Assembly (NCBI GenBank): GCA_040954595.2
Contig: CM082576.2
Coordinates: forward strand, 14,697,129 to 14,761,128
Reading direction: 5' to 3'
DNA from: Balanoglossus misakiensis
Lineage: Eukaryota; Animalia; Hemichordata
DNA: 64,000 nt
The position numbers were made by a program, and so were the translations under genes. The notes under the pieces were generated by a model. That model was given only the letters and a program-made list of their open reading frames with translations. It ran no database searches and was not told the origin of the DNA. Of this stretch, positions 38,697 through 60,557 are shown in pieces. Each line of letters opens with the position of its first letter. Positions within the stretch are counted from its first letter, which is position 1.

Positions 38697-39587
38697 CTCG
38701 CTGCTGCATACGTGTTGTTCGTTGGTTTGCGGTTAAATTTTGTGTCCCGGCCGCTTATCAACGTTGAGGGCGCACTAGTGGGTGCTAATGGGGAATTTCT
38801 TAACACGGGCAACACCCTGACAATCAGGTGATATACCCACTGGCCGTCAATTGCCTTTATAATTGCATGCACCATGTGATTTATAGGAAGCTGTTGTATA
38901 GCACAAAAATAGCATGGGGTTTCCTGTCTAGTGTTGACCATGATTTTAATATGCCCTCTGGTACTTCTTGTCGTTAATTATGCTTTCTTTCAGTTTCACT
39001 CTGACAATCAGAGACCATGATGAGTGGAGTTTGCAGATTTGGAAAGCTATTCATTGCTAATCACACTGGCCTATCCTAGTATGCAATGGCCTAGTAGAAA
39101 AACACCCCCAGTCAGTATAAATGACCAGCCCCTTACCAACCATGCATATATTTTGTTGTGAAATTCAATGCATAAGTCATTCATGATTGTGTTATTAAAA
39201 GCAAAACAAAAACAAGAAAGGTACATGAGAATTATTGTGGCTATGAGTCAGTCTATTTTAAAACTTTGAATTTCAACAAATATATATTCTCTTGTCATAT
39301 ACTTTGCAGTTGTTGGTGTCTTGTCACTTTCTCAAGGGATTTACATTCCTTTTTGCTTTCACCTTCCTTCATTATTTATGTCAAACTGCTGTGTTTATAA
39401 GTAAATCATCTTTTTTCATATATTTGAAGATAAATTTGTTTGAAAATAAAAATAAATTTAAGTATTTTTTTTAAAAAGTCAAGTGGTGTTACTGTGACAT
39501 GCCTATAGGAAAAGACAATATTTTTTGTTTCCCATACGCACCATTCTTGTTGTTGCTATTGTATTCACCATCTTGGCTAAAAAATGT

Positions 39588-41182
39588 TCAAGATTTGTCA
39601 ATAAACTGTCCAGTCTGTTCGTCCCGTGTGACTTGATCCCAGCGAAACACCCGACCATTCATGGCGACAAACACACCACTCTCGGCCATACACTGCACGG
39701 CTCCAATGGCAACTCCAACATTGAATTCTGCATCAGAGTTCTTAAATGTGTTCGGTAGAAAGGAGCCAGTCAACACGATTGTCTTATCCAGGTTGTTTTT
39801 TCCGAGGAAGGCTGCTGTCTCTATCATTGTGTCCGTCCCATGGGTGATTACAATCTTCTTCTGAGCAGCAGACTTGCACATCTCATTTAAGTCCGACCTG
39901 CAATGTTAGAAGAGACACAATTTGGAAATAGATTTGTGCCAGTGCAGTCCCTCTGCCAGTAAATTTATAAACATAAGTTTTCACAAATTAAGTTTTCAGT
40001 TTGCAAATTTACAGGGAACTGCGTGTCAAAACTAAGTTGTGATTGTTGAAATCAAAAATGTAGTCTGGTGTTTGAAATAAATATGTCTCTGTGTGATGAA
40101 CCGAAATATCTCTAGGTGCATTACTATTCCAGTTAAATTTATGCAACGCACAATGAAATAACAGCTGATATGTATAAACTAAAGGCATATCAGTTTTACT
40201 CAGCAAAAGAGCAGTAGCATGGTCATGCAATCACTCTACCTGTCCTTGTAAATTATTTTCTGGCTATCTTTCCTGAACGCTGATGTATAACCCACAGGCA
40301 AAGCCATGTTCTTTGTTTCAAGTATTGCACGTGCAGCTGGGTCTTCTATCTCAAATCCATATGCACAGGTTCCCTTGGGGTAGTCCTTGTCTATAGTCCC
40401 TGGAATGAAAAATTACAGTAGAGAAAAAGTATTAGTGATTTTTTTTTACTTTCCAAGGCCAAAATAGCTGCCCATTTTTTCATTATTCTCATGATTTCAA
40501 CAACCTCTGACTGTTGATGTACAATTAAATGTGAGCAAGATATTATAATAAACAGGTGCTGCACTCGTTTATTCAACCCCCTTTTGCAAGAATACACAGA
40601 AAATGGGAAATCGTGGTATGCGCACATGGGTATTAATTAATTGACAGTTCTTCATAAACTTAAAGTCAAAATTGTGTTGTTCATCAGCTATAAGGATTCA
40701 TTTGCTCCACACCATCGCTCCATGAACGCAAGCCCTAACCCTAAATGTGAAATATACCCTAAAGCTAACCTGTCAACAATCAAACATAACTATATTTGTA
40801 AACAAACAAACAAACAAACAAATGTTTTTTCTGTTTATATCAATCAATAACAACAAACAAACAAACAAACAAACAAACAAACAAACAAACAACAAAAACA
40901 TACACTACAAACAAGGAGGAAGAGCCCACTGTGCACAGACCTGCATGCAGAGTTAGCTTCTTGCATGCCACCGGATAGCTACATTAAGTAGCTCTAGGTT
41001 TTGTTTATGTTTTACATTTTAGACGGCCGTCACAAACAAATTTAAACCTCAGACTGGAGCTAATTACTGAACTGCGCAGCTATAGCTACCGAGCACATCA
41101 CTCGATTACGTACATGAAGATTCATTACAACTTGGAAATGTTTACCTCCAGCTTGAATGACCAGAATTGGCAAATTAGACAT
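39588..41182 (-). CDS. Short-chain (N-terminal-domain-only) class 1 L-asparaginase, 3 coding exons, 168 aa
   Basis: Exons 41182-41146, 40399-40240, 39897-39588 (507 nt, GT-AG, phases 1 and 2). Translation: MSNLPILVIQAGGTIDKDYPKG...RKDSQ...IVITHGTDTMIETAAFL...KTIVLTGSFLP...SDAEFNVGVAIGAVQ...GVFVAMNGRVF...GQFIDKS*. Both catalytic Thr motifs (GGT, HGTDT) are present and there is no C-terminal domain. Confidence 0.9.
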
Positions 41183-41731
41183 AATTTCACCGATACTAAT
41201 AGCTCAGTGTCCAGCCACCCTCCTGGTTTCGTTAGTCGTCTGCCCCACAATACCCACAATGCAACGCGACAGACGCGGCGTCTGTTGTTTCCGTGGTCTG
41301 ATGCACTTGCCGATCCTCCCATCGTTTTGGAGTCATGGAGCTAAAATAGCAGATGTGTGTCTACTTTGATGAAAACCTTTCCCAAGGTAAATCAAATCCA
41401 TTTTATTTTCACATTTATTGATATAGTCTTTTAATCTACAGCGGTCTGGTCCGTATGTTTTGTCAGAAGGCTGTGTTGTTCCATTTAAAAATGGCGTCCC
41501 CGGAAGTAAACAAACATTTTAAATGGCAAAAAAATCCCCTATCTTTCGTCACTGCTTTGACGTACTCGGGGAATCACCGGTATTCCGTTTCCATTTAACT
41601 ACAGAAATCGTCACGAAAGTCGGGGCTCTGTGCAACAGAAACCAAAGGGACTTTGGTGTATGAGACATTTTTCTGACTTCGCCCGTTGAACTTCGACTTG
41701 AAATTGAAGACAGGACTTGCCGGACTGCAAT
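41183..41731. promoter_or_regulatory. Probable bidirectional promoter between asparaginase and FBXO48, with adjacent YY1-like and ETS motifs
   Basis: Divergent ATGs ~550 bp apart, CpG-rich. AAAATGGCG (41488-41496) lies next to CCGGAAGT (41500-41507). Confidence 0.6.
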
Positions 41732-45726: not shown

Positions 45727-48700
45727 ATGGGGAGACAAAAGGAGTATCGCAGTAATCCCAACAAACGGCGAAGAGTCCGAGTCGTGCCCGAGTGGAAAGA
45801 AAAGGGGTTGCCGCCACCGAAGGAATATATCGAACAGATGAACAAGAAATTCGACTATGGAGGTAAAGCTTTTTCATAATAATATCGCATATTCTATTGT
45901 AAAGAATTTGTAAAATGCTTTTCTGACTAATTTTGGAGGTGCGTGATCTTATGGAATCAGTACGTCGTTTGGGGACATCACAATTTGCCTCATACCAAAT
46001 TCTCAATATTATAAAAGTGACTTTCGTCTTTCTTTCGATACGTGACGCTGAGTGCATGGTAGATAGTATCAGGGGGCTTGGTCAATCGCTTCTCTGGGTA
46101 TAATTATGCATTACAATATTTTGGTATCCAAAAAGTCAAGAGTCCTATTAAATGACATAGTTTTAAAAGACATTAAAATTTACGAGTAACAGAGCGACCC
46201 CACCCCGTATACGTATATTAAACCGCCGCAAGTCGACTGAGATTTGGGTCGGGATGGTGACGTCATCCCGATATATGTATGTATGATAACAGGTGTAAGC
46301 GTTGACAGTTTAGTTTCAGTATATTCAGGGTCTGTAGTGGAAACTAGCGTGTCTTTTCATCGGTTATATATTTAATATTAGACGTACCAGCACGTTTCCA
46401 TCCAGACACGCCAACCCATAAAGACGACAGACACGTGTCCAATCAAAGTTTATCCGGGTGAACTCCTAAGCTTGCTATGAAATACGCCATAGATATCAGA
46501 GACACGATCCGGCTAGCCATCACTTTGAAGTGCATAGAGGTCAAATACCTTTATGTAAGACATTGGTCACAACATTTGATTACCTTACAAATATCGTGAC
46601 CTGGGAATTTCAATCAACGAATGAGTTTAATTACATCTTTTACGTAATATACTGTTATTATATTGAAATACGTGGGAGGTTGTGTTTGTATATGATGGTT
46701 GCTAGTCCTTGTATCTGATCACCTTGGTTTGGTCGTGATCTTGACAGAGATAATTTCTTCTTTGATTACTTGGTCTTTCTACAATTTACGTCAATGACCG
46801 ACAGACAATCCGAAGGATATTTTAGTGTGTAATAATTTTGTAATAGTCCTGTTTCAAAATGACCTACATTACACGTCCTATACACATGTATTGCATGTTC
46901 TGATTGGTTTATCCGATTCTCTAAGGTCCACTTGCGGCACGCTGATTGGAGGGACCTTGTAGGTTAGGTCTTATTACTATGTATTATTCACTAGACCTTG
47001 TAGGTTAGGTCTTATTACTATGCATTATTCACTTTACAGCTCCCCGATTGGTTAATGTGTAGGCCTGGTCCTCCAGTGTTCACTGCCTCATTATACAGGA
47101 CCTTATAGGTTAGGTCTTATTAGTATGTATTTATTCACCATACAGCTCCCTGATTGGTTAACGTGTCAGTCTGGTCCCCCATGTGTTCACTGCCTCATTG
47201 TGAAATGTCCCATGTGCTTCCTGGCTACCGTTGTGGTAACACATTATTCGGGATGTCCGCAGATCGTTCATTGCTTTTCTAAGAAATAGCCTGACTGATA
47301 TTATCTCCAACATAAACCGCACCCTGGAAAGATTAAATGATCTTTTAGGTGGACTTTGAAAATCTGATTAACTCATCTAAGCATTTTAGATAAGTTGTAT
47401 ATTTTTTTAATCACCCTCCTACTTCTCATCATCAATTTTATTATTGTTGTTATTACTATTTTAAAGTAAATTTGTTTTGACGAAGATGTTGTAATAAGGA
47501 GCACGTTGTCCGTTTATACATTCGTATATTGTTTTCATAAAATGGAACTGTCACGGTGCAGCTTCGTGAAAGAAGTACAATAAAAGTAATCATACCTGTA
47601 AAGCAACTAATGAGGTATCCCAAAGAAATGCAATGCTATTCTAAACATTTCTATTGTAAGATATTTTTGGTTTGCTTGAATGAATAGCACAGACTTCATA
47701 TTCAGCCAGGTGTTACACGAAGTGATGCGCTGAAAGGCATTACGTAACAAAACACTAGCCCTTTTCAACAAACCGCCACTGGAAATAAAATACATTTTAT
47801 TTCGAGTATCTAGTTCACAGTATCACAAAATGCCATGAATAGTGTGAAGGAAAATGTGAAATCCAATCATTATATGAGTGCCTTTCTTTATACACTGGGA
47901 TCGATCGCGAGCTTCGACCACGCGCAGGTAGCATGCCAGACAGAATACGACAACTGTATTCAGAAAGTACAAAAGACTTTGCATAACGAGGCAGTGAAAA
48001 CTGGAGACCTAAACATTAACCAATGAGGGAGCTGAAAATTGAATAAATACATATTAATAAGACCTAACCAACAAGGTCCTGCATAATGAGGCAGTGAACA
48101 CTGGAGGACCAGACCTACGCATTAACCAATCAGGGAGCTGTAAAGTGAATAATACATAGTAATAAGACCTAACCTACAAGGTCCCTCCAATCAGCGTGCC
48201 GCAAGTGGACCTAAGATTACCAGATGGACCAATCACAGATGTCTGTACATATGTCATGGACCTGACTTATGAAACAGGACTAATTGGACAATCAAGAACA
48301 CGCCGATGTGTTGTAAACTTATAATTGGACAATGCGGATCATGCTTTGGTGAATCTTTAATTTCTTTTCTTTCTCAAAGACATATAAACTCTGTAATTCC
48401 TTGCTTTGAGTAGAACAACCATCTTGCAGACAACCGTGTGTTGGAAAGCCTTTGCACCAGAAATAAAGCCTTCTGACTGCCCCTACTTCGGGTCTCAACG
48501 AGTCTCTACTTTGATAGATCCTGCACACCTCTTTGCAACCGCAATGTTAGAGTATCAGCTCGACCAGCCGTAACATTTGGTGGAGAAGTCCGACGGGTAT
48601 CGAAGCAAACTCGTTAATGACAACACGTAGTGGGGCAAGATACAACATCAGAATGGCAGACAATCAACTTCCAGCACCACTGGAGGCAGAAGTAGGAGCA

Positions 48701-51700
48701 GAGGCAGAGCCACAACAACAGGCTCCTGAACAAGCGGCAGAAGTACAAGGTGCTGAATGGCAAGGCATCTTACAAGCCCAGCTGGCTGAAATCCGTTTAG
48801 CTTGTACTGATAGCTCAGACGGTTTATCACCAGCTACCTTCAGAGGTCGTGCAGACGAAAACGTACATCAGTGGTGGTGGCAAAGATACCTAGACTTTGC
48901 CAACATCAGGATTGGGCTGACGACAAGAAACGAAGCGGCATTGGTCTATACCTTGCCGGCGAGGCCGAACGATGGTTCCGGAGCCAGCCTAATGAGGTGA
49001 AGAACGACCTCGAGACCATCGGGACTAAGCTGCGGGAAATTCTCAGGTCTCGATATTTGTAAGGTAATCAAATGTTGTGACCATAAACTAATGTCTTACA
49101 TAAAGGTATTTGACTTCTATACACGGAATTACTGATCTAACTGGAAATTAATCATAGAAATTACAATTCTTTAATGCGATTGAAATTCTTCAATTTTCCC
49201 ATTTTTTATATATCGTAACACCCCAAATGATATAAAAATACATTATATAGTTTTTCGTGTAAAATTTATTTGACCGTTACACATAGCACGGCTAGACTGG
49301 CAAGGCATCATCCAAGCCCAGCTGGCTGAGATCCGTCTAGCTTGTATAGCTGTTGGTCGTACAGCCACATACTTACCAAAGCGTTCCCGCAGCTTAGTAA
49401 GTCCCGATGGTCTCGAGGTCGTTCTTCACCTCGTCAGGTTGGCTTCGGTACCATCGTTCGGCCTCGCCGGCAAGATATAGACCGATGCCGCTGCGTTTCT
49501 TGTCGTCAGCCCAGCCCCTGAAGTTGGCAACGTCTAGATATCTTTGCCACCATTGGTGAACGTTTTCGTCTTCACGACCTCTGAAGATAGCTGGGGATAG
49601 ACCGTCTGAGCTATCAGTACAAGCTAAACGGATTTCAGCCAGCTGGGCTTGTAAGATGCCTTGCCATTCAGCACCTTGTACTTCTGCCGCTTGTTCAGGA
49701 GCCTGTTGTTGTGGCTCTGCCTCTGCTCCTACTTCTGCCTCCAGTGGTGCTGGAAGTTGATTGTCTGCCATTCTGATGTTGTATCTTGCCCCACTACGTG
49801 TTGTCATTAACGAGCTTGCTTCGATACCCGTCGGACTTCTCCACCAAATGTTACGGCTGGTCGAGCTGATACTCTAACATTGCGGTTGCAAAGAGGTGAG
49901 ATGGGATCTATCAAAGTAGAGACTCGTTGAGACCCGAAGTAGTGGGAGTCAGAAGGTTTTATTTCTGGTTCAGAGGCGTTACAACACACGGTTGTCTGCA
50001 AGATGGTTGTTCTACTCAAGACAAGAAATTACAGAGTTTATATGTCTTTGAGAAAGAAAAGAAATTAAAGATTAACCAAAGCATGATCCGCATTGTCCAA
50101 TTATAACTTTACAACACATCGGCGTATTCTTGATTGTCCAATTACAAAATTATTACACACTAAAATATCCTTCGGATTGGCTGTCGGTCATTGACGTAAA
50201 TTGTAGAAAGACCAAGTAATCAAAGAAGAAATTATCTCTGTCAAGATCACGACTAAACCAAGGTGATCAAATACAAGGACTAGCAACCATCATATACAAA
50301 CGCCTCCTCCCACGTATTTCAATATAACGTAAAAGATGTAATTAAACTCATTCGTTGATTGAAATTCCCAGGTCTCGATATTTGTTAGGTAATCAAATGT
50401 TGTGACCAATGTCTTACATACAGGTATTTGACCTCTATACACGGAATTACTGATCTAACTGGAAATTAATCACAAAATTACAATTATTTAATGCGATTGA
50501 AATTCTTCAATTTTCCCATTTTTTATATATCGTAACAGGGGTTTTAACTTCAGTTTTGAGCTTCTGTACTGAAGCTGTAAATTGCAGGAAAGGGCTTAAA
50601 AGTACGATTTTTGGAACTGATAACGAAAAATGGCATCAGCGTTATATGTAAAATATAACCGTCTGAGTTTTAAAGGCCCATGTTTGCACGGTTGACGTGG
50701 GCATTTCTATATAAACAATATGTCTGCTGTCACTGTACAGAACTGTTTATTGGGAAACAAAATGGATGGTCATACAGCGCGTACCCCTTTAATTAACCAT
50801 AGGACCATTCTCCATAGGCGTGTAATGAGTATAAGTGTCTCTGTGAAATTGTTACGCGTTGGTTCTACAGCAGTCCAGATTGTTTAACGCGGTACTTCAA
50901 AATATTTAAACAGAGTGAAAGACCAGCTAAACACAAAGACATGGTGATTTACCATACCGTCTTTGTTGTCGCGGTGATTTAGAGAGTGCCTGTAACTTTC
51001 TCTCGGCTTGCAGTGTTTACGTGAAGGTAAGCAAACATTTATCAAAATCATCTGGGAATGCCGATGAAAATTGGTCGTTGTGGTAAATGACTCCTATTTT
51101 AAGAACCAAGAAAACTAATAACGCTGAACTTAGTCTGTGAAATGTTTTTATCGCAATTTCAATGTTTTAAGGTAAACGTACTGAGGTTTAATGCTAACAC
51201 TGTCACCCCTAGCCCTGGATCGGTCCAAGTTAATAATAGAGGAGTTTAATGTCACTGGAATTTTATTGAGAAGAACACCGAGAAGCAGACATGACCAGCG
51301 TGACTCATACCGCAATCCCATATTCCTATCAAAAGACGATCAAAGTGGTGTAAAAAGCAGTGCGCGCTGCGTGTTCTCATCGACTTCATGGACCATTAAA
51401 GCCTCGTGTAGGTTTGTAAATCTCATAAAACCAAGAAATTATTGAACACTTCGGCTTGTCCTCGCCATACTAGAGTTTGTCGTTCTGGATAATATTTCGT
51501 GACCACCAGGATCTGCACTTACTTTTTGATCAGTTTCGGGTTATCAGTTTTCAGGAGCGTTCGAGTGAAATACGAGCCAACCCACGCTCTAACAACGTCT
51601 TCAGGACAAGGCGGGATACTCCATTCTTTAATCTTAAAGCTCGCATTCCCAAAATTACACGTAGTTGATAACCTGTAGATGTATTTGATATGAAGCGTAT

Positions 51701-54700: not shown

Positions 54701-55096
54701 TTCACCTATTTTGTTTTCGTGCGACCAACCCACCTGGTCTCCCGTCGTACCCTATAAATAAACAAAATCGCCATTCAGTTCTTTATTATTATAACAGATA
54801 CCTGTTTAATTTAATTTACAGACGTTGATCAGGAACGTGCCCTCGAGTTAATAAATGCTGTGAGAGAAGGCGACATGTTGATTGTTCGGCGATTGGTCAG
54901 AGCCGGTGCCAAAATAAATTGTCCAATGGACGGTGGTTGGACGGCCTTACATCACGCCGCCGTCACCGGTCGGGTTGACGTCATCAGGTACCTGTTACTT
55001 CGCGGAGCTGACAAGACAATTTTGAACAATGATGAGAAAACGGCGGCGGACTTAGCTGGTAAAGATGGCGAAGAAGTTATGGATCTGTTGAAATAG
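45727..55096 (+). CDS. Small ankyrin-repeat protein with basic N-terminus, minimal 2-exon model, ~136 aa
   Basis: Exon 45727-45862 (MGRQKEYRSNPNKRRRVRVVPEWKEKGLPPPKEY..., GTAAAG donor, phase 1) is phase-compatible with exon 54822-55096 (tttacag acceptor; LINAVREGD..IVRRLVRAGAKIN, GWTALHHAAVTGRVDVIRYLLLRGADK, KTAADLA). The ankyrin exon is solid. Its link to exon 1 is inferred. Confidence 0.65.
46530..49038 (+). mobile_element. Second, inverted copy of the same LTR-PBS-gag 5' end (5'-truncated LTR interrupted by a DNA transposon; frameshifted gag 48617-49038)
   Basis: 46530-46844 and 48282-48575 are reverse complements of the 49849-50450 LTR. PBS ~48578, gag ATG 48617, with a +3 and a -1 indel relative to the minus copy. 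Confidence 0.85.
46845..48281. mobile_element. Non-autonomous foldback-like DNA transposon (1437 bp) nested in the LTR, 3-bp TSD AAT
   Basis: Termini AGTCCTGTTTCA...TGAAACAGGACT. The uninterrupted site TTTTGTAATTGGAC is visible in the other LTR copy, which defines the AAT duplication. Long imperfect subterminal inverted repeats (~46920-47200 vs ~47985-48215) are built of tandem subunits. Confidence 0.85.
49036..49220 (-). mobile_element. Third fragment: LTR 5' end in minus orientation fused to the truncated plus gag
   Basis: Near-identical to ~50360-50537 and ends in tatcgtaaca. Joined to gag through a shared GAAA. Confidence 0.8.
49346..49807 (-). pseudogene. Truncated gag (capsid N-lobe) of the LTR element, minus copy
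   Basis: MTTRSGARYN...PAIFRGREDENVHQWWQRYLDVANFRGWADDKKRSGIGLYLAGEAERWYRS, a typical retrotransposon gag pattern. A 4-bp TACT duplication creates the stop at 49394. The original frame continues KLRERFG and then breaks off. No pol. Confidence 0.85.
49849..50537 (-). mobile_element. LTR (~689 bp) of a Ty3/Gypsy-like retrotransposon
   Basis: On the minus strand it begins TGTTACG and ends CGTAACA (7-bp inverted termini, TG..CA). It is followed by a PBS TGGTGGAGA, complementary to a tRNA-Ala-type 3' end, and then the gag ATG at 49807. Confidence 0.85.
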
Positions 55097-57733: not shown

Positions 57734-59554
57734 TTTAGTACATACAGTAAAGAAAGAGACATGATAGTTTTTCACCAGTATTTATTGACTCTGACTCGAC
57801 AAAGTGTGAGAATCAAGGAGATCGGCGCCCGGGGCAGTACTGCAAAACAACACTACCACCAGACATTACATGATATGACAACTGGTCAAAATATATCGAT
57901 CTGTTTTATGTACAAATAGCACCAGTAAAACTCCGTGTCCGAGGTTCCCACTGGGTTTAATATAAACGGTTATACTTTCATTTCAAACAATGGATTCCTG
58001 GTGCACTTGTCTTACGATCACGCTTTGTATAAAGAATGTGGAAACAATTCTGATCAGTTCTCGGAGTTTGGCCAAAATACATGATCTCACTTCTAAGGTT
58101 GCATGTATGCGTTTCACTTAAACATCTCAGCTTGCATATCACAAATGTTATCTCTACTCCTCTGCGAAATTTACAAATATGCAAGCACAGAAGATATGCG
58201 CAGAATTTGCAGAATGTCGCAGAGAGAAATTGACCTGTCCATAAACCATGCAATAATTAATTCATCTATCCATGAACATTCATTTCTGAACACTTGATCA
58301 TGGAAAGCTAGCTTACATGTTGAAATTAATTGTCAAGGTTCAGAGATTTTGCCAGCAGCAACTTTAAAGTAAACTCGCACAGTCACAGTTATTGTATCGC
58401 TTTGGAAATTGACATAAGATGCTGACCAGATGGTCATGGATATAGGCATCTCCAAGTGAGTGTTAAATAATCCAGTTGACACAGACTGAAAACTCAACGG
58501 GTAACAAGCTTATCATCTTTCAAACCCCCCAGTCTCTAAGTAAAATCTAGAATATGATAGGTGTTTTTTTTTTAGTTAATCCCGATACACTGTGACTCCA
58601 TGAAGTTAATAAAGCTTGCAAAATATTGCACAGATCCTCAATTGTTTTCATACTGCATCAGCATTACTAGTGGAACATTCAACCGGGAATCTGTTACAGT
58701 CTTGGAAAAAAATACAGTTAAAACAAATTATGATAAAAAGTTGTAATGTTCATCAGAATCTTGACAGTTCCTTACTACATTATGGTGATGCGAATTTTAG
58801 AATGAGACTCTGCGCAACATACCCTGAATGTATCATAACTGTCCTGTGGCGCAAACGTTCCAATTATGGCAGCTATTGAAAACAGCCTTATAAAGAGGAA
58901 ATCTAATAAATTGCATTGTCAGAAGTTAAATATTTCACAAACTTGTAAGATGACATCAGGCCTTGAGTTAATAATATAGTGCATTATTATAGACGATAAT
59001 TAAATATTTCTGAGAGCTTTAAGTTGCCTTGCAGCTGGAAATATAATGAATCCATCACAGTTGTGGTTCTAGTTACCCTTGTTGTCCAAGTAGAAAACCA
59101 GCCACAGAAGTATGTACAAACACAGACATATATCCTGGCTGGAATGCCCTGAACTCATAATGACTCCACCTAACATTTTATGAACATGTTTTGACCACTT
59201 TGTTTTTTTTTGATAATTAACCATCCTTGACCTAGCAAGTATGGTCACCAAAACAGTGTTTTGATACTTCTGAGCTAGTCTTGACGAAAGAAAAATATAT
59301 ACTGATGGTGAATAACCTAATTTAAAACCTATTAGGCCATTTAAACCAATCTTATTATCTCGATATGATACAAACTCTTACATCTTACAGGAAAAGAAAA
59401 GTCTGAATTCAGAATTAACACCAATACATCCAACATCTGTTTAAAGTAAAATAAAAAGTCAAAACTTTGGAAGACTGAAGTATATAGTTACGGTACTTGA
59501 TGTTGAGTGTCATGAATTCATTTCACAGTTACGCACATACATGTATATGTAGCT

Positions 59555-59780
59555 TATGTATGTATGTATGTATGTATGTATGTATGTATGTATGTATGTA
59601 TGTATGTATGTATGTATGTATGTATGTATGTATGTATGTATGTATGTATGTATGTATGTATGTACATGTATGTATGTATGTATGTATGTATGTATGTATG
59701 TATGTATGTATGTATGTATGTATGTATGTATGTATGTATGTATGTATGTATGTATGTATGTATGTATGTATGTATGTATG
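59555..59780. repeat. (TATG)n microsatellite
   Basis: Near-perfect tetranucleotide array with one interruption. Shorter microsatellites lie at ~8695-8750 (CA), ~16305-16390 (GACA), ~29569-29634 (TCAA/TCTA), ~30458-30515 (CAGTA), ~33778-33811 (CA), ~40799-40895 (AAAC), ~62687-62877 (CAT). Confidence 0.97.
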
Positions 59781-60557
59781 AGGACTGTGCAGTTGTACCA
59801 ACATCAGTTGTGTGTGTTGACATTGACACCAATTACTGTGTCTGGCACACTGCTGCTGTAACACAGTTCAAGGCTCAGGGGAGAAATTTCAGTTTATAAT
59901 CAAATTATACATTCTAGTAATAGGAGAGCACAACTGAAGTGTATGCTAAAAATATACCAAGATTTTAACGAGTACTCTTGTGGCAAATATAACTGCCCTT
60001 TGATTTTTGATATAACATGGCGATGTAATACAAACAGTTGCCAAAGACAAACAGAAAGAGAAAGTTGTCAGATAGAAACAACATCAGCTAATGGAAAACT
60101 GCAGATGTGTGGAAGAAGCAGAGGTTTTCTGTCCTGCTGCAGGGACGCAAAATACATGATATGAAGAGACTGCCACTTTCAAATTGATTTTCGTCAGTCT
60201 TGATGCATTGAGCAGACAGACTATAAAAAATCCAGCCTCTGACCTGAATGCTTTTGAAGCAGTTGAAAATAATTTTTATCAAAAACATCTAGAAGCACCT
60301 TGCAAAGAATTAATTTTGCACTGAAATGATAAATATTCCCAACATAGCAGATTTTGTTATAATTTACAACAACTCTGATGATACATTATTTGGCGAGACC
60401 TCCAATTTAATGTAGCATCAGTGAATGCACAAATTCATCCATTTTCTTATAGAAGCACAAGACAAAAAACTTTGTTTCTGTAATTTATGGTTATACAGGA
60501 GAAACTCCCGCAAAAGATTGAACTGCCTATTCAGGAAATGGTGGATAAATACAGTAA

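What the first reader, a model, noticed from the sequence alone, without database searches (positions are those of the whole stretch)
39588..41182. Intron-containing, bacterial-type short-chain L-asparaginase in an animal genome: candidate horizontal gene transfer
Seen: an intact 168-aa ORF split by two GT-AG introns, with AGGTIDKDY, RKDS, THGTDTMIETA, SDAEFNVG and VFVAMNGRVF, and a stop where the C-terminal domain would begin. Established: the usual animal class 1 asparaginase (ASPG / 60-kDa lysophospholipase) has both domains plus ankyrin repeats and a TGGTIGM motif. Single-domain ~170-aa enzymes with GGTIDKDY are the prokaryotic short-chain type, e.g. Rhodospirillum rubrum RrA as I recall it. 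Inference: a bacterial gene was acquired, gained introns and settled among conserved housekeeping genes. Introns and flanking animal genes argue against contamination.
Basis: partly seen in the sequence, partly recalled or inferred. Interest (0 to 1): 0.85.

Follow-up and report, generated by a model that had tools for sequence, protein, structure and literature searches.

The report
Ancient animal short asparaginase, lysine swapped
An animal, likely an acorn worm, has an intact three-exon gene for a short bacterial-style asparaginase also found in sponges, many other invertebrates and several protists, so it is likely an old inheritance and not a recent bacterial gift; like nearly all its animal relatives it has arginine where the one solved enzyme of this type needs lysine, and its activity is untested.

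Summary
The gene is real: three minus-strand exons, two GT-AG introns, 168 codons. It is a short-chain (RrA-type) class 1 asparaginase homologue. A recent bacterial transfer is not supported. The protein is 74% identical to a Ptychodera flava protein, against 56% for the best hit not named as an animal. Named relatives cover 11 animal phyla, sponges included, and five protists. All 28 named eukaryotic rows form one branch (97/81). Barnacle isoforms switch first exons at the window's intron-1 codon, so that intron likely predates the protostome-deuterostome split. A very old transfer into animals is not excluded (AU p=0.23). The RrA paper already announces eukaryotic members. Not found in print: RrA's essential Lys158 is Arg in the window protein, in 36 of 38 named animal rows, and in 267 of 301 members of a 'DKxYP' subfamily, whereas 179 of 184 other members keep Lys. 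Activity and substrate are therefore open.

The parts
41146..41182 (-). Exon 1 (coding part): ATG, first beta-strand, first base of Gly13
   Evidence: aligns with Ptychodera P0001 from residue 1
40400..41145 (-). Intron 1, 746 nt, GT-AG, phase 1 inside codon 13; holds an AACA microsatellite at 40849-40914
   Evidence: same codon is the first-exon switch point in barnacle isoforms X1/X2/X3
40240..40399 (-). Exon 2: Thr14 (RrA Thr16 nucleophile), Lys17 (RrA Lys19), Tyr19 (RrA Tyr21), Pro20 and the GYxFEI-type loop of the Arg subfamily, Asp57-Ser58
39898..40239 (-). Intron 2, 342 nt, GT-AG, phase 2 inside codon 66
   Evidence: same read-through signature in three unnamed exon-like fragments P0002, P0005, P0451
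39588..39897 (-). Exon 3: Thr87-Asp88 (39836-39831), oligomer helix (about residues 121-135), TGA stop at 39590-39588
39624..39626 (-). Arg157 (CGG), at the position of the essential catalytic Lys158 of RrA
   Evidence: ungapped alignment to RrA chains, which carry 13 extra N-terminal residues; column counts; K158M = 0% activity in PMC10949315 Table 3
41183..41731 (.). 549-nt head-to-head gap to an F-box gene (ATG 41732, + strand); a shared promoter region is inferred
   Evidence: (F-box-like E=6.4e-11)
38697..39587 (-). 891-nt gap between the stop and the next gene's ATG (38696); no C-terminal asparaginase domain found

Best explanation
The locus is an intact three-exon animal gene of the short-chain (RrA-type) class 1 asparaginase family, likely inherited from at least the common ancestor of bilaterians, and predicted to encode a cytosolic homotetramer that likely hydrolyses L-asparagine with an arginine in place of the usual catalytic lysine. 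Shown: gene structure, family, conserved Thr14, Lys17, Tyr19, Asp57, Ser58, Thr87 and Asp88, Arg157, and the spread of relatives. Inferred by analogy with RrA (PMC10949315): Asp57, Ser58 and Asp88 hold the amino-acid end of Asn; Thr14 attacks the side-chain amide to give an acyl-enzyme and ammonia; Tyr19 from a neighbouring dimer and Lys17 relay the proton; Thr87-Asp88 with Arg157 set up the water that releases aspartate. Arg is a poor general base (general chemistry), so I expect slower turnover, a higher pH optimum, or Lys17 taking over the base role. Likely job: low-affinity (millimolar) turnover of surplus asparagine. Odds: inherited since the bilaterian ancestor or earlier about 0.93; one origin shared with protists about 0.6; L-Asn is the main substrate about 0.6.
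For: Family: RrA chains are the best solved relatives (E=1.4e-24, next family 4.4e-12); the model of the Ptychodera orthologue matches RrA best (TM 0.80, E=2e-15). Range: acorn worms, three amphioxus species, a tunicate, echinoderms, molluscs, an annelid, a brachiopod, a nemertean, three sponges; barnacle, nematode, fluke; Incisomonas, Artemidia, Norrisiella, Biecheleria, Cymbomonas. Trees of 52 named rows: window + Ptychodera 100/98 and 100/99; 28 eukaryotic rows on one branch 97/95 and 97/81; animals as one clade not rejected (p=0.29). Introns: barnacle isoforms differ only upstream of codon 13 and read Gly, Ser, Gly there, as a phase-1 junction would give; Lottia and Pinctada models begin to match at codon 13, and the Asterias X2 model diverges just upstream of it. 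Active site: T14, K17, Y19, D57, S58 in 38 of 38 named animal rows, T87 and D88 in 37 of 38. Oligomer (Ptychodera orthologue as stand-in, 4 copies): score 0.92, best of 3 controls 0.01, runs agree in at least 94% of contacts, pLDDT at least 91; residues 14, 19, 25-28 and 57 lie in an interface, as described for RrA. Calibration: the mark was reached by 20 of 30 solved pairs and 1 of 23 single chains in microbes, 17 of 29 in eukaryotes (animals 7 of 16), but only 1 of 7 without an older solved relative, so the pass may be memory of RrA. GC3 0.49 is inside the 0.37-0.56 range of four neighbouring exons.
Against: The essential lysine is missing: K158M has 0% activity in RrA, and the Thr-Lys-Asp triad is part of the case for filing short enzymes in class 1; I found no assay of an Arg-type member. 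RrA Asn26 has no clear counterpart (the loop is two residues longer). The alignment has only about 165 columns and deep branches are weak: animals are not one clade in the best trees (sponges fall with protists); a separate transfer into animals is not rejected (p=0.23); acorn worms with prokaryotes is borderline (p=0.054 and 0.058). The 52-row set leaves out unnamed rows: in the 86-row quick tree nine short unnamed proteins of unknown domain (e.g. P0183, P0164) sit among the eukaryotes, and one unnamed protein (P0375, protist-like by my reading) sits with prokaryotes at 95. No cnidarian, choanoflagellate, fungal, plant or vertebrate name appeared in the lists shown, which are cut at 120 rows and mostly unnamed. 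No genomic DNA of another animal was obtained, so intron sharing is read from protein models.
Confidence: 0.6

Rival explanations
1. The Arg-type subfamily is not mainly an L-asparaginase. It keeps the Asp/Asn pocket and the Thr nucleophile but acts on another amide (for example a beta-aspartyl amide), or turns over slowly and serves as an asparagine/aspartate-binding module.
For: Arg replaces the essential Lys in 267 of 301 DKxYP rows against 3 of 184 others, together with a distinct conserved loop (G25, Y26, E29, I30, P33, A34, E115 in the Arg group). Several unnamed long relatives carry the domain fused to a dual-specificity-phosphatase-like, p25-alpha, RRM or BED-finger domain.
Against: The other seven catalytic and binding positions are nearly invariant. 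12 DKxYP rows, Lottia among them, have Lys, which suggests the two residues can exchange. Seven prokaryotic DKxYP-type loci show no shared neighbour gene that points to another pathway (read by eye).
Confidence: 0.3
2. The gene entered the animal stem from an Arg-type prokaryote more than about 600 million years ago, separately from the protist copies, then gained introns and was lost in many lineages.
For: The constraint 'animals + 13 nearest prokaryotes, protists outside' is not rejected (p=0.23; the 13 were picked after seeing the tree). Eukaryotic rows nest inside a prokaryotic Arg-type branch (100/99). Prokaryotic Arg-type proteins are 48-53% identical to the window protein, high for a gene that old. 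The RrA paper reports frequent transfer of the family among bacteria.
Against: Best trees put animals and protists of five major groups on one branch. Nearest prokaryotes are a scatter of bacteria and archaea with no single donor group. Arg-type genes are rare in the genomes sampled (E<=1e-45: 1 of 201 and 3 of 20).
Confidence: 0.25
3. One reading: a bacterial gene was acquired by this species or by acorn worms and then gained introns.
For: The family is described from bacteria; AU tests for acorn worms with prokaryotes are borderline (p=0.054 and 0.058).
Against: Window alone with prokaryotes rejected (p=0.002). The ten best-scoring hits of the joined protein are named animals. Relatives in 11 animal phyla; likely shared intron with a barnacle.
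Confidence: 0.02
4. It is a truncated copy of the long animal enzyme (ASPG type), a pseudogene, or contamination.
For: Only PF00710 is present, which long enzymes also have; no ASPG was in the trees.
Against: Open frame and canonical introns; orthologues end at the same place; it has Lys17, the residue reported as unique to short-chain enzymes; RrA scores 12 orders of magnitude better than long enzymes; flanking genes are intron-split eukaryotic genes.
Confidence: 0.01

Closest known systems
RrA, short-chain L-asparaginase of Rhodospirillum rubrum (class 1 type s; PDB 8UOO, 8UOU and mutants; PMC10949315, PMC12951835)
   Same: Single N-terminal-type domain of about 170 residues, no C-terminal domain, no obvious signal peptide, Thr16/Lys19/Tyr21/Asp57/Ser58/Thr87/Asp88 equivalents, same fold (orthologue model TM 0.80, about 34% identity), predicted tetramer with the active-site loop in the interface.
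   Different: Arg at the Lys158 position; Pro after the Tyr and a loop two residues longer without a clear Asn26; animal gene with two introns; activity never measured.
Annotated invertebrate orthologues, e.g. Ptychodera flava XP_070577531, Lingula anatina XP_013415002, Branchiostoma LOC118414066
   Same: Same length class, same motifs, Arg at the lysine position; 53-74% identity to the window protein.
   Different: Only automatic names ('probable L-asparaginase periplasmic', 'uncharacterized protein'); no study of them was found.
Long class 1 asparaginases: E. coli AnsA (type I), AnsB (type II); animal ASPG (recalled, not retrieved)
   Same: Homologous N-terminal domain with the Thr...Thr-Asp catalytic set (34% and 42% identity over 83 residues).
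   Different: They have a C-terminal domain and the catalytic Lys162/163, and a different tetramer (PMC10949315).
Deuterostome genes of putative microbial origin (Simakov et al. 2015, PMC4729200)
   Same: Intron-bearing acorn-worm genes with close microbial relatives among ordinary animal genes.
   Different: That list asks for no comparable hit in non-deuterostome animals; this gene has many, so it fails that test. The word asparaginase was not found in the main text or in 2 supplement files.

Membership tests
Short-chain asparaginases (class 1 type s) | Chain of about 160-185 residues, PF00710 only, no C-terminal domain | tested here: met
   168 aa; PF00710 only; no C-terminal domain in the window
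Short-chain asparaginases (class 1 type s) | Groups with short-chain sequences, apart from types I and II | tested here: met
   RrA E=1.4e-24 vs 4.4e-12; nested among short prokaryotic rows with E. coli AnsA/AnsB outside
Short-chain asparaginases (class 1 type s) | Family-specific Lys19, plus Thr16, Tyr21, Asp57, Ser58, Thr87, Asp88 | tested here: met
   K17, T14, Y19, D57, S58, T87, D88
Short-chain asparaginases (class 1 type s) | Catalytic Lys158 of the Thr-Lys-Asp triad (essential in RrA; reported as only moderately conserved in the family) | tested here: not met
   Arg157; paper statements. Membership by descent holds; 'works like RrA' is lowered.
Short-chain asparaginases (class 1 type s) | Homotetramer with active sites completed by the other dimer | tested here: inconclusive
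   Prediction on the Ptychodera orthologue passes (0.92 vs best control 0.01) but may be memory of RrA
Short-chain asparaginases (class 1 type s) | Hydrolyses L-Asn with millimolar Km, almost no glutaminase activity | not testable with these tools
   needs an assay; RrA values
Short-chain asparaginases (class 1 type s) | Cytoplasmic, no signal peptide | tested here: inconclusive
   The first beta-strand starts at residue 6, leaving no room for a leader; no predictor was run
Long class 1 type I / type II / GatD | Curated NCBIfam score and C-terminal domain | tested here: not met
   exon 3 scores 30-54 bits against cut-offs of 260-506 (one exon only); no C-terminal domain
Animal ASPG (60-kDa lysophospholipase) | Two-domain enzyme with ankyrin repeats (recalled); branches with ASPG | tested here: inconclusive
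   No C-terminal domain in the gene; the ankyrin ORF at 54815 is 13.6 kb away on the other strand; no ASPG sequence was in any tree
Lineage-specific horizontal transfer (criteria of PMC4729200) | No comparable match in non-deuterostome animals; tree lacks such branches | tested here: not met
   Mytilus 53%, Lingula 54%, Lineus 52%; trees

The most novel reading that the evidence does not exclude
Animals from sponges to amphioxus, many protists and a scatter of bacteria and archaea share an unstudied Arg-type branch of short class 1 asparaginases that breaks the Thr-Lys-Asp triad thought essential, and so either works by a different proton relay (Lys17 as base) or acts on a different amide; it would be a second, compact animal asparaginase family lost on the way to vertebrates, possibly seeded by a very old transfer from prokaryotes.
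Probability: 0.35. Interest if true: 0.6.

Novelty: new variant of a known kind. Interest (0 to 1): 0.36.

Why it matters
As a transfer story it matters little: the gene is old and widespread, and eukaryotic members were announced in 2024. It matters for enzymology. All ten solved short-chain structures are of RrA (PMC12951835), a Lys-type enzyme, and the class 1 mechanism relies on that lysine. A large conserved branch with Arg there is a natural test of the mechanism that one assay and two point mutants can settle. Short asparaginases have been suggested as smaller, possibly less immunogenic drug scaffolds, limited by weak affinity (PMC10949315 section 3.6); animal versions widen that pool if they are active.

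Tried and rejected
No whole genome is held, so copy number and an ASPG gene elsewhere in this genome were not checked. Genomic DNA of other animals: a metagenome scan with fragment P0007 gave 3 loci at 51-53% identity; the one opened is an intronless gene in prokaryotic-type context. Identity of the short unnamed proteins nesting among animals (P0183 group): no relative among 15 viral pattern matches; best 51% and 49% in 401 and 401 sampled genomes of two bacterial phyla; unresolved. Careful mixture tree of 86 rows did not finish in two runs; only the quick tree is reported. Neighbourhoods of seven DKxYP-type prokaryotic loci: no shared neighbour seen (not Pfam-scanned). ESM Atlas: only bacterial PF00710 clusters shown, not informative on range. 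Plasmids: 15 records, all under 60% identity. first counted column 158, one off; one search is the corrected count. Literature: 9 searches found no paper on animal or Arg-type short asparaginases, and the two K162R hits are cancer reviews by their listing; most subscription papers are not in the library, so the follow-up announced in PMC10949315 may exist. Earlier findings: 3 look-ups, nothing. Rejected: contamination, pseudogene, hidden C-terminal exon, recent transfer (reasons under rivals).

Full report
Observation. Coding GC is 46% against 35% in the introns. Exon 3 matches Pfam PF00710 (E=6.7e-18) and stays far below the cut-offs of long type I, type II and GatD models (one exon only). 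No C-terminal domain follows: the gap to the next gene is 891 nt, and E. coli AnsA/AnsB C-terminal parts find nothing better than E=3.4 in the window. Neighbours are eukaryotic genes in short exons: F-box head-to-head at 549 nt, a zinc-dehydrogenase-type oxidoreductase, GOST seven-transmembrane exons, two weak PRKCSH-like matches below cut-off, an ankyrin ORF (9 of 21 stretches had a match at E<0.005). The gene just downstream looks like a TMX thioredoxin by recall only; its 50-codon first exon had no Pfam match.

Family. RrA chains are the best solved relatives of exon 3 and of the full-length Ptychodera orthologue P0001 (E=1.4e-24; next family 4.4e-12). A model of P0001 (pLDDT 81.7) matches RrA best (TM 0.80).

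Range. The joined protein is 74% identical to Ptychodera flava, 62% to Glandiceps and 58-59% to amphioxus. Among 307 stored proteins its ten best hits are named animals, and the best others reach 56%. The source is therefore likely an acorn worm (inference). Named relatives: hemichordates, chordates (Branchiostoma, Clavelina), echinoderms, molluscs, Owenia, Lingula, Lineus, sponges (Oscarella, Corticium), and Amphibalanus, Plectus and Fasciolopsis: 11 phyla by my own assignment of species. Protists: Incisomonas, Artemidia, Norrisiella, Biecheleria, Cymbomonas. Of 30 proteins looked up, 13 carried an organism name themselves. No vertebrate, cnidarian, fungal, plant or choanoflagellate name appeared, but the lists stop at 120 rows (150), so this is not absence.

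Trees. From 455 proteins and 80 prokaryotic loci, 423 proteins and all 80 loci covered at least 125 profile positions; 32 proteins were dropped. FastTree on 506 rows puts the window with Ptychodera inside a mostly bilaterian group. On 52 named rows (23 animals, 5 protists, 24 prokaryotes, my choice) both LG+G4 and the mixture model give window + Ptychodera (100/98, 100/99) and one branch for all 28 eukaryotes (97/95, 97/81), inside a wider branch with 13 prokaryotes (99/98, 100/99). AU tests under LG+G4, run after the tree was seen: window alone with prokaryotes p=0.002; three acorn worms with prokaryotes p=0.054; animals one clade p=0.29; animals with the 13 nearest prokaryotes p=0.23; window + Ptychodera with prokaryotes p=0.058; deuterostomes one clade p=0.34. 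Against a clean reading: sponges group with protists, and in the 86-row quick tree nine short unnamed proteins sit among eukaryotes while one unnamed protein that looks protist-like to me sits with prokaryotes. Ancient vertical descent is favoured; some old transfers are likely in the family; no donor can be named.

Introns. Three barnacle RefSeq isoforms differ only before codon 13 and read Gly, Ser, Gly there, which fits a phase-1 junction at the window's intron 1. Lottia and Pinctada models start to match at codon 13, Amphiura and unnamed P0335 at codon 12, and Asterias X2 has a different N-terminus up to codon 12. Three unnamed fragments show Cys/Phe-Arg 19 residues before THGTD, as the window's own exon 3 does when read into its intron, where spliced proteins have Asp-Arg. 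This is indirect, from protein models, but points to intron 1 existing in the bilaterian ancestor.

Active site. T14, K17, Y19, D57 and S58 are present in 38 of 38 named animal rows (window included), T87 and D88 in 37 of 38. RrA Lys158 aligns without gaps to Arg157 (chain number minus 13, checked on Thr87). K158M abolishes RrA activity. The column is Arg in 36 of 38 named animal rows (Lottia Lys, one gap) and 4 of 5 protists, and Lys in 77 of 80 prokaryotic loci. Over 504 rows, those with Pro after the Tyr have Arg in 267 of 301; the others have Lys in 179 of 184; 19 rows fit neither pattern. Eleven named prokaryotes nearest the animals are Arg-type, six more distant ones Lys-type. The sample was seeded with animal queries, and the genome scan covered 3 of 64 parts, so these are not population frequencies. 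The RrA paper says only that this lysine is moderately conserved; 'arginine' does not occur in its main text. A four-copy prediction for P0001 passes (0.92, best control 0.01; agreement at least 94%, pLDDT at least 91; 20 of 30 solved pairs and 1 of 23 single chains reach the mark, animals 7 of 16) with loop residues 14, 19, 25-28 and 57 in an interface as in RrA, but may be memory of RrA.

Mechanism. Most likely a cytosolic tetramer using Thr14 as nucleophile, with Tyr19 and Lys17 as proton relay and Thr87-Asp88-Arg157 around the hydrolytic water, turning over asparagine at low affinity. Every catalytic step is inferred from RrA; I put L-Asn as main substrate at about 0.6. The main rival is another amide substrate or a binding role (0.3).

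What is known. [quoted passage not shown] PMC12951835 (passages and section 3.5) files it as class 1 type s, with all 10 structures from R. rubrum. PMC4729200 (passages; term search of 2 supplement files) does not mention asparaginase. Other papers were seen as search listings only. Nine searches found no description of animal or Arg-type members; the alignment in the RrA supplement was searched by term, not read, and may show Arg-type rows.

Verdict. Observation confirmed; recent transfer not supported; an old, widespread animal gene of a known family, in an unstudied Arg-type variant. Interest 0.36.

Noticed in passing
proteins P0164, P0152, P0180, P0183, P0088, P0194, P0201, P0221, P0242: A tight group of 160-aa unnamed metagenomic proteins (one cluster has 213 members) falls inside the animal branch in two trees. 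If prokaryotic, it is either a long-branch artefact or a transfer from a eukaryote.
   Followed up: partly
proteins P0337, P0342 (and by eye P0339, P0345, P0360, P0369, P0381, P0391): Recurrent fusion of a dual-specificity-phosphatase-like domain in front of the short asparaginase domain in unnamed, protist-like proteins (matches mostly below cut-off).
   Followed up: partly
proteins P0313, P0343 (also P0370, P0424 by two matched stretches): Two short asparaginase domains in tandem in one chain, a possible fused dimer.
   Followed up: partly
window 48551-49062 (+) and 49394-49873 (-): Two near-identical ORF stretches in opposite orientation, an inverted duplication that looks like a retrotransposon gag fragment by recall; no Pfam match.
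   Followed up: partly
window 41183-41731: Asparaginase and F-box genes start head-to-head 549 nt apart; a shared promoter is possible.
   Followed up: no
window 38800-39587 (-): No AATAAA downstream of the stop; the only ATTAAA is at 38950, about 250 nt before the next gene's ATG.
   Followed up: no
window 40849-40914 and about 59520-59800: AACA microsatellite in intron 1 and a long TATG-type microsatellite.
   Followed up: no
proteins P0317, P0319, P0368: These models lose similarity at residues 134-145, hinting at a further intron in some animals that the window gene lacks.
   Followed up: no
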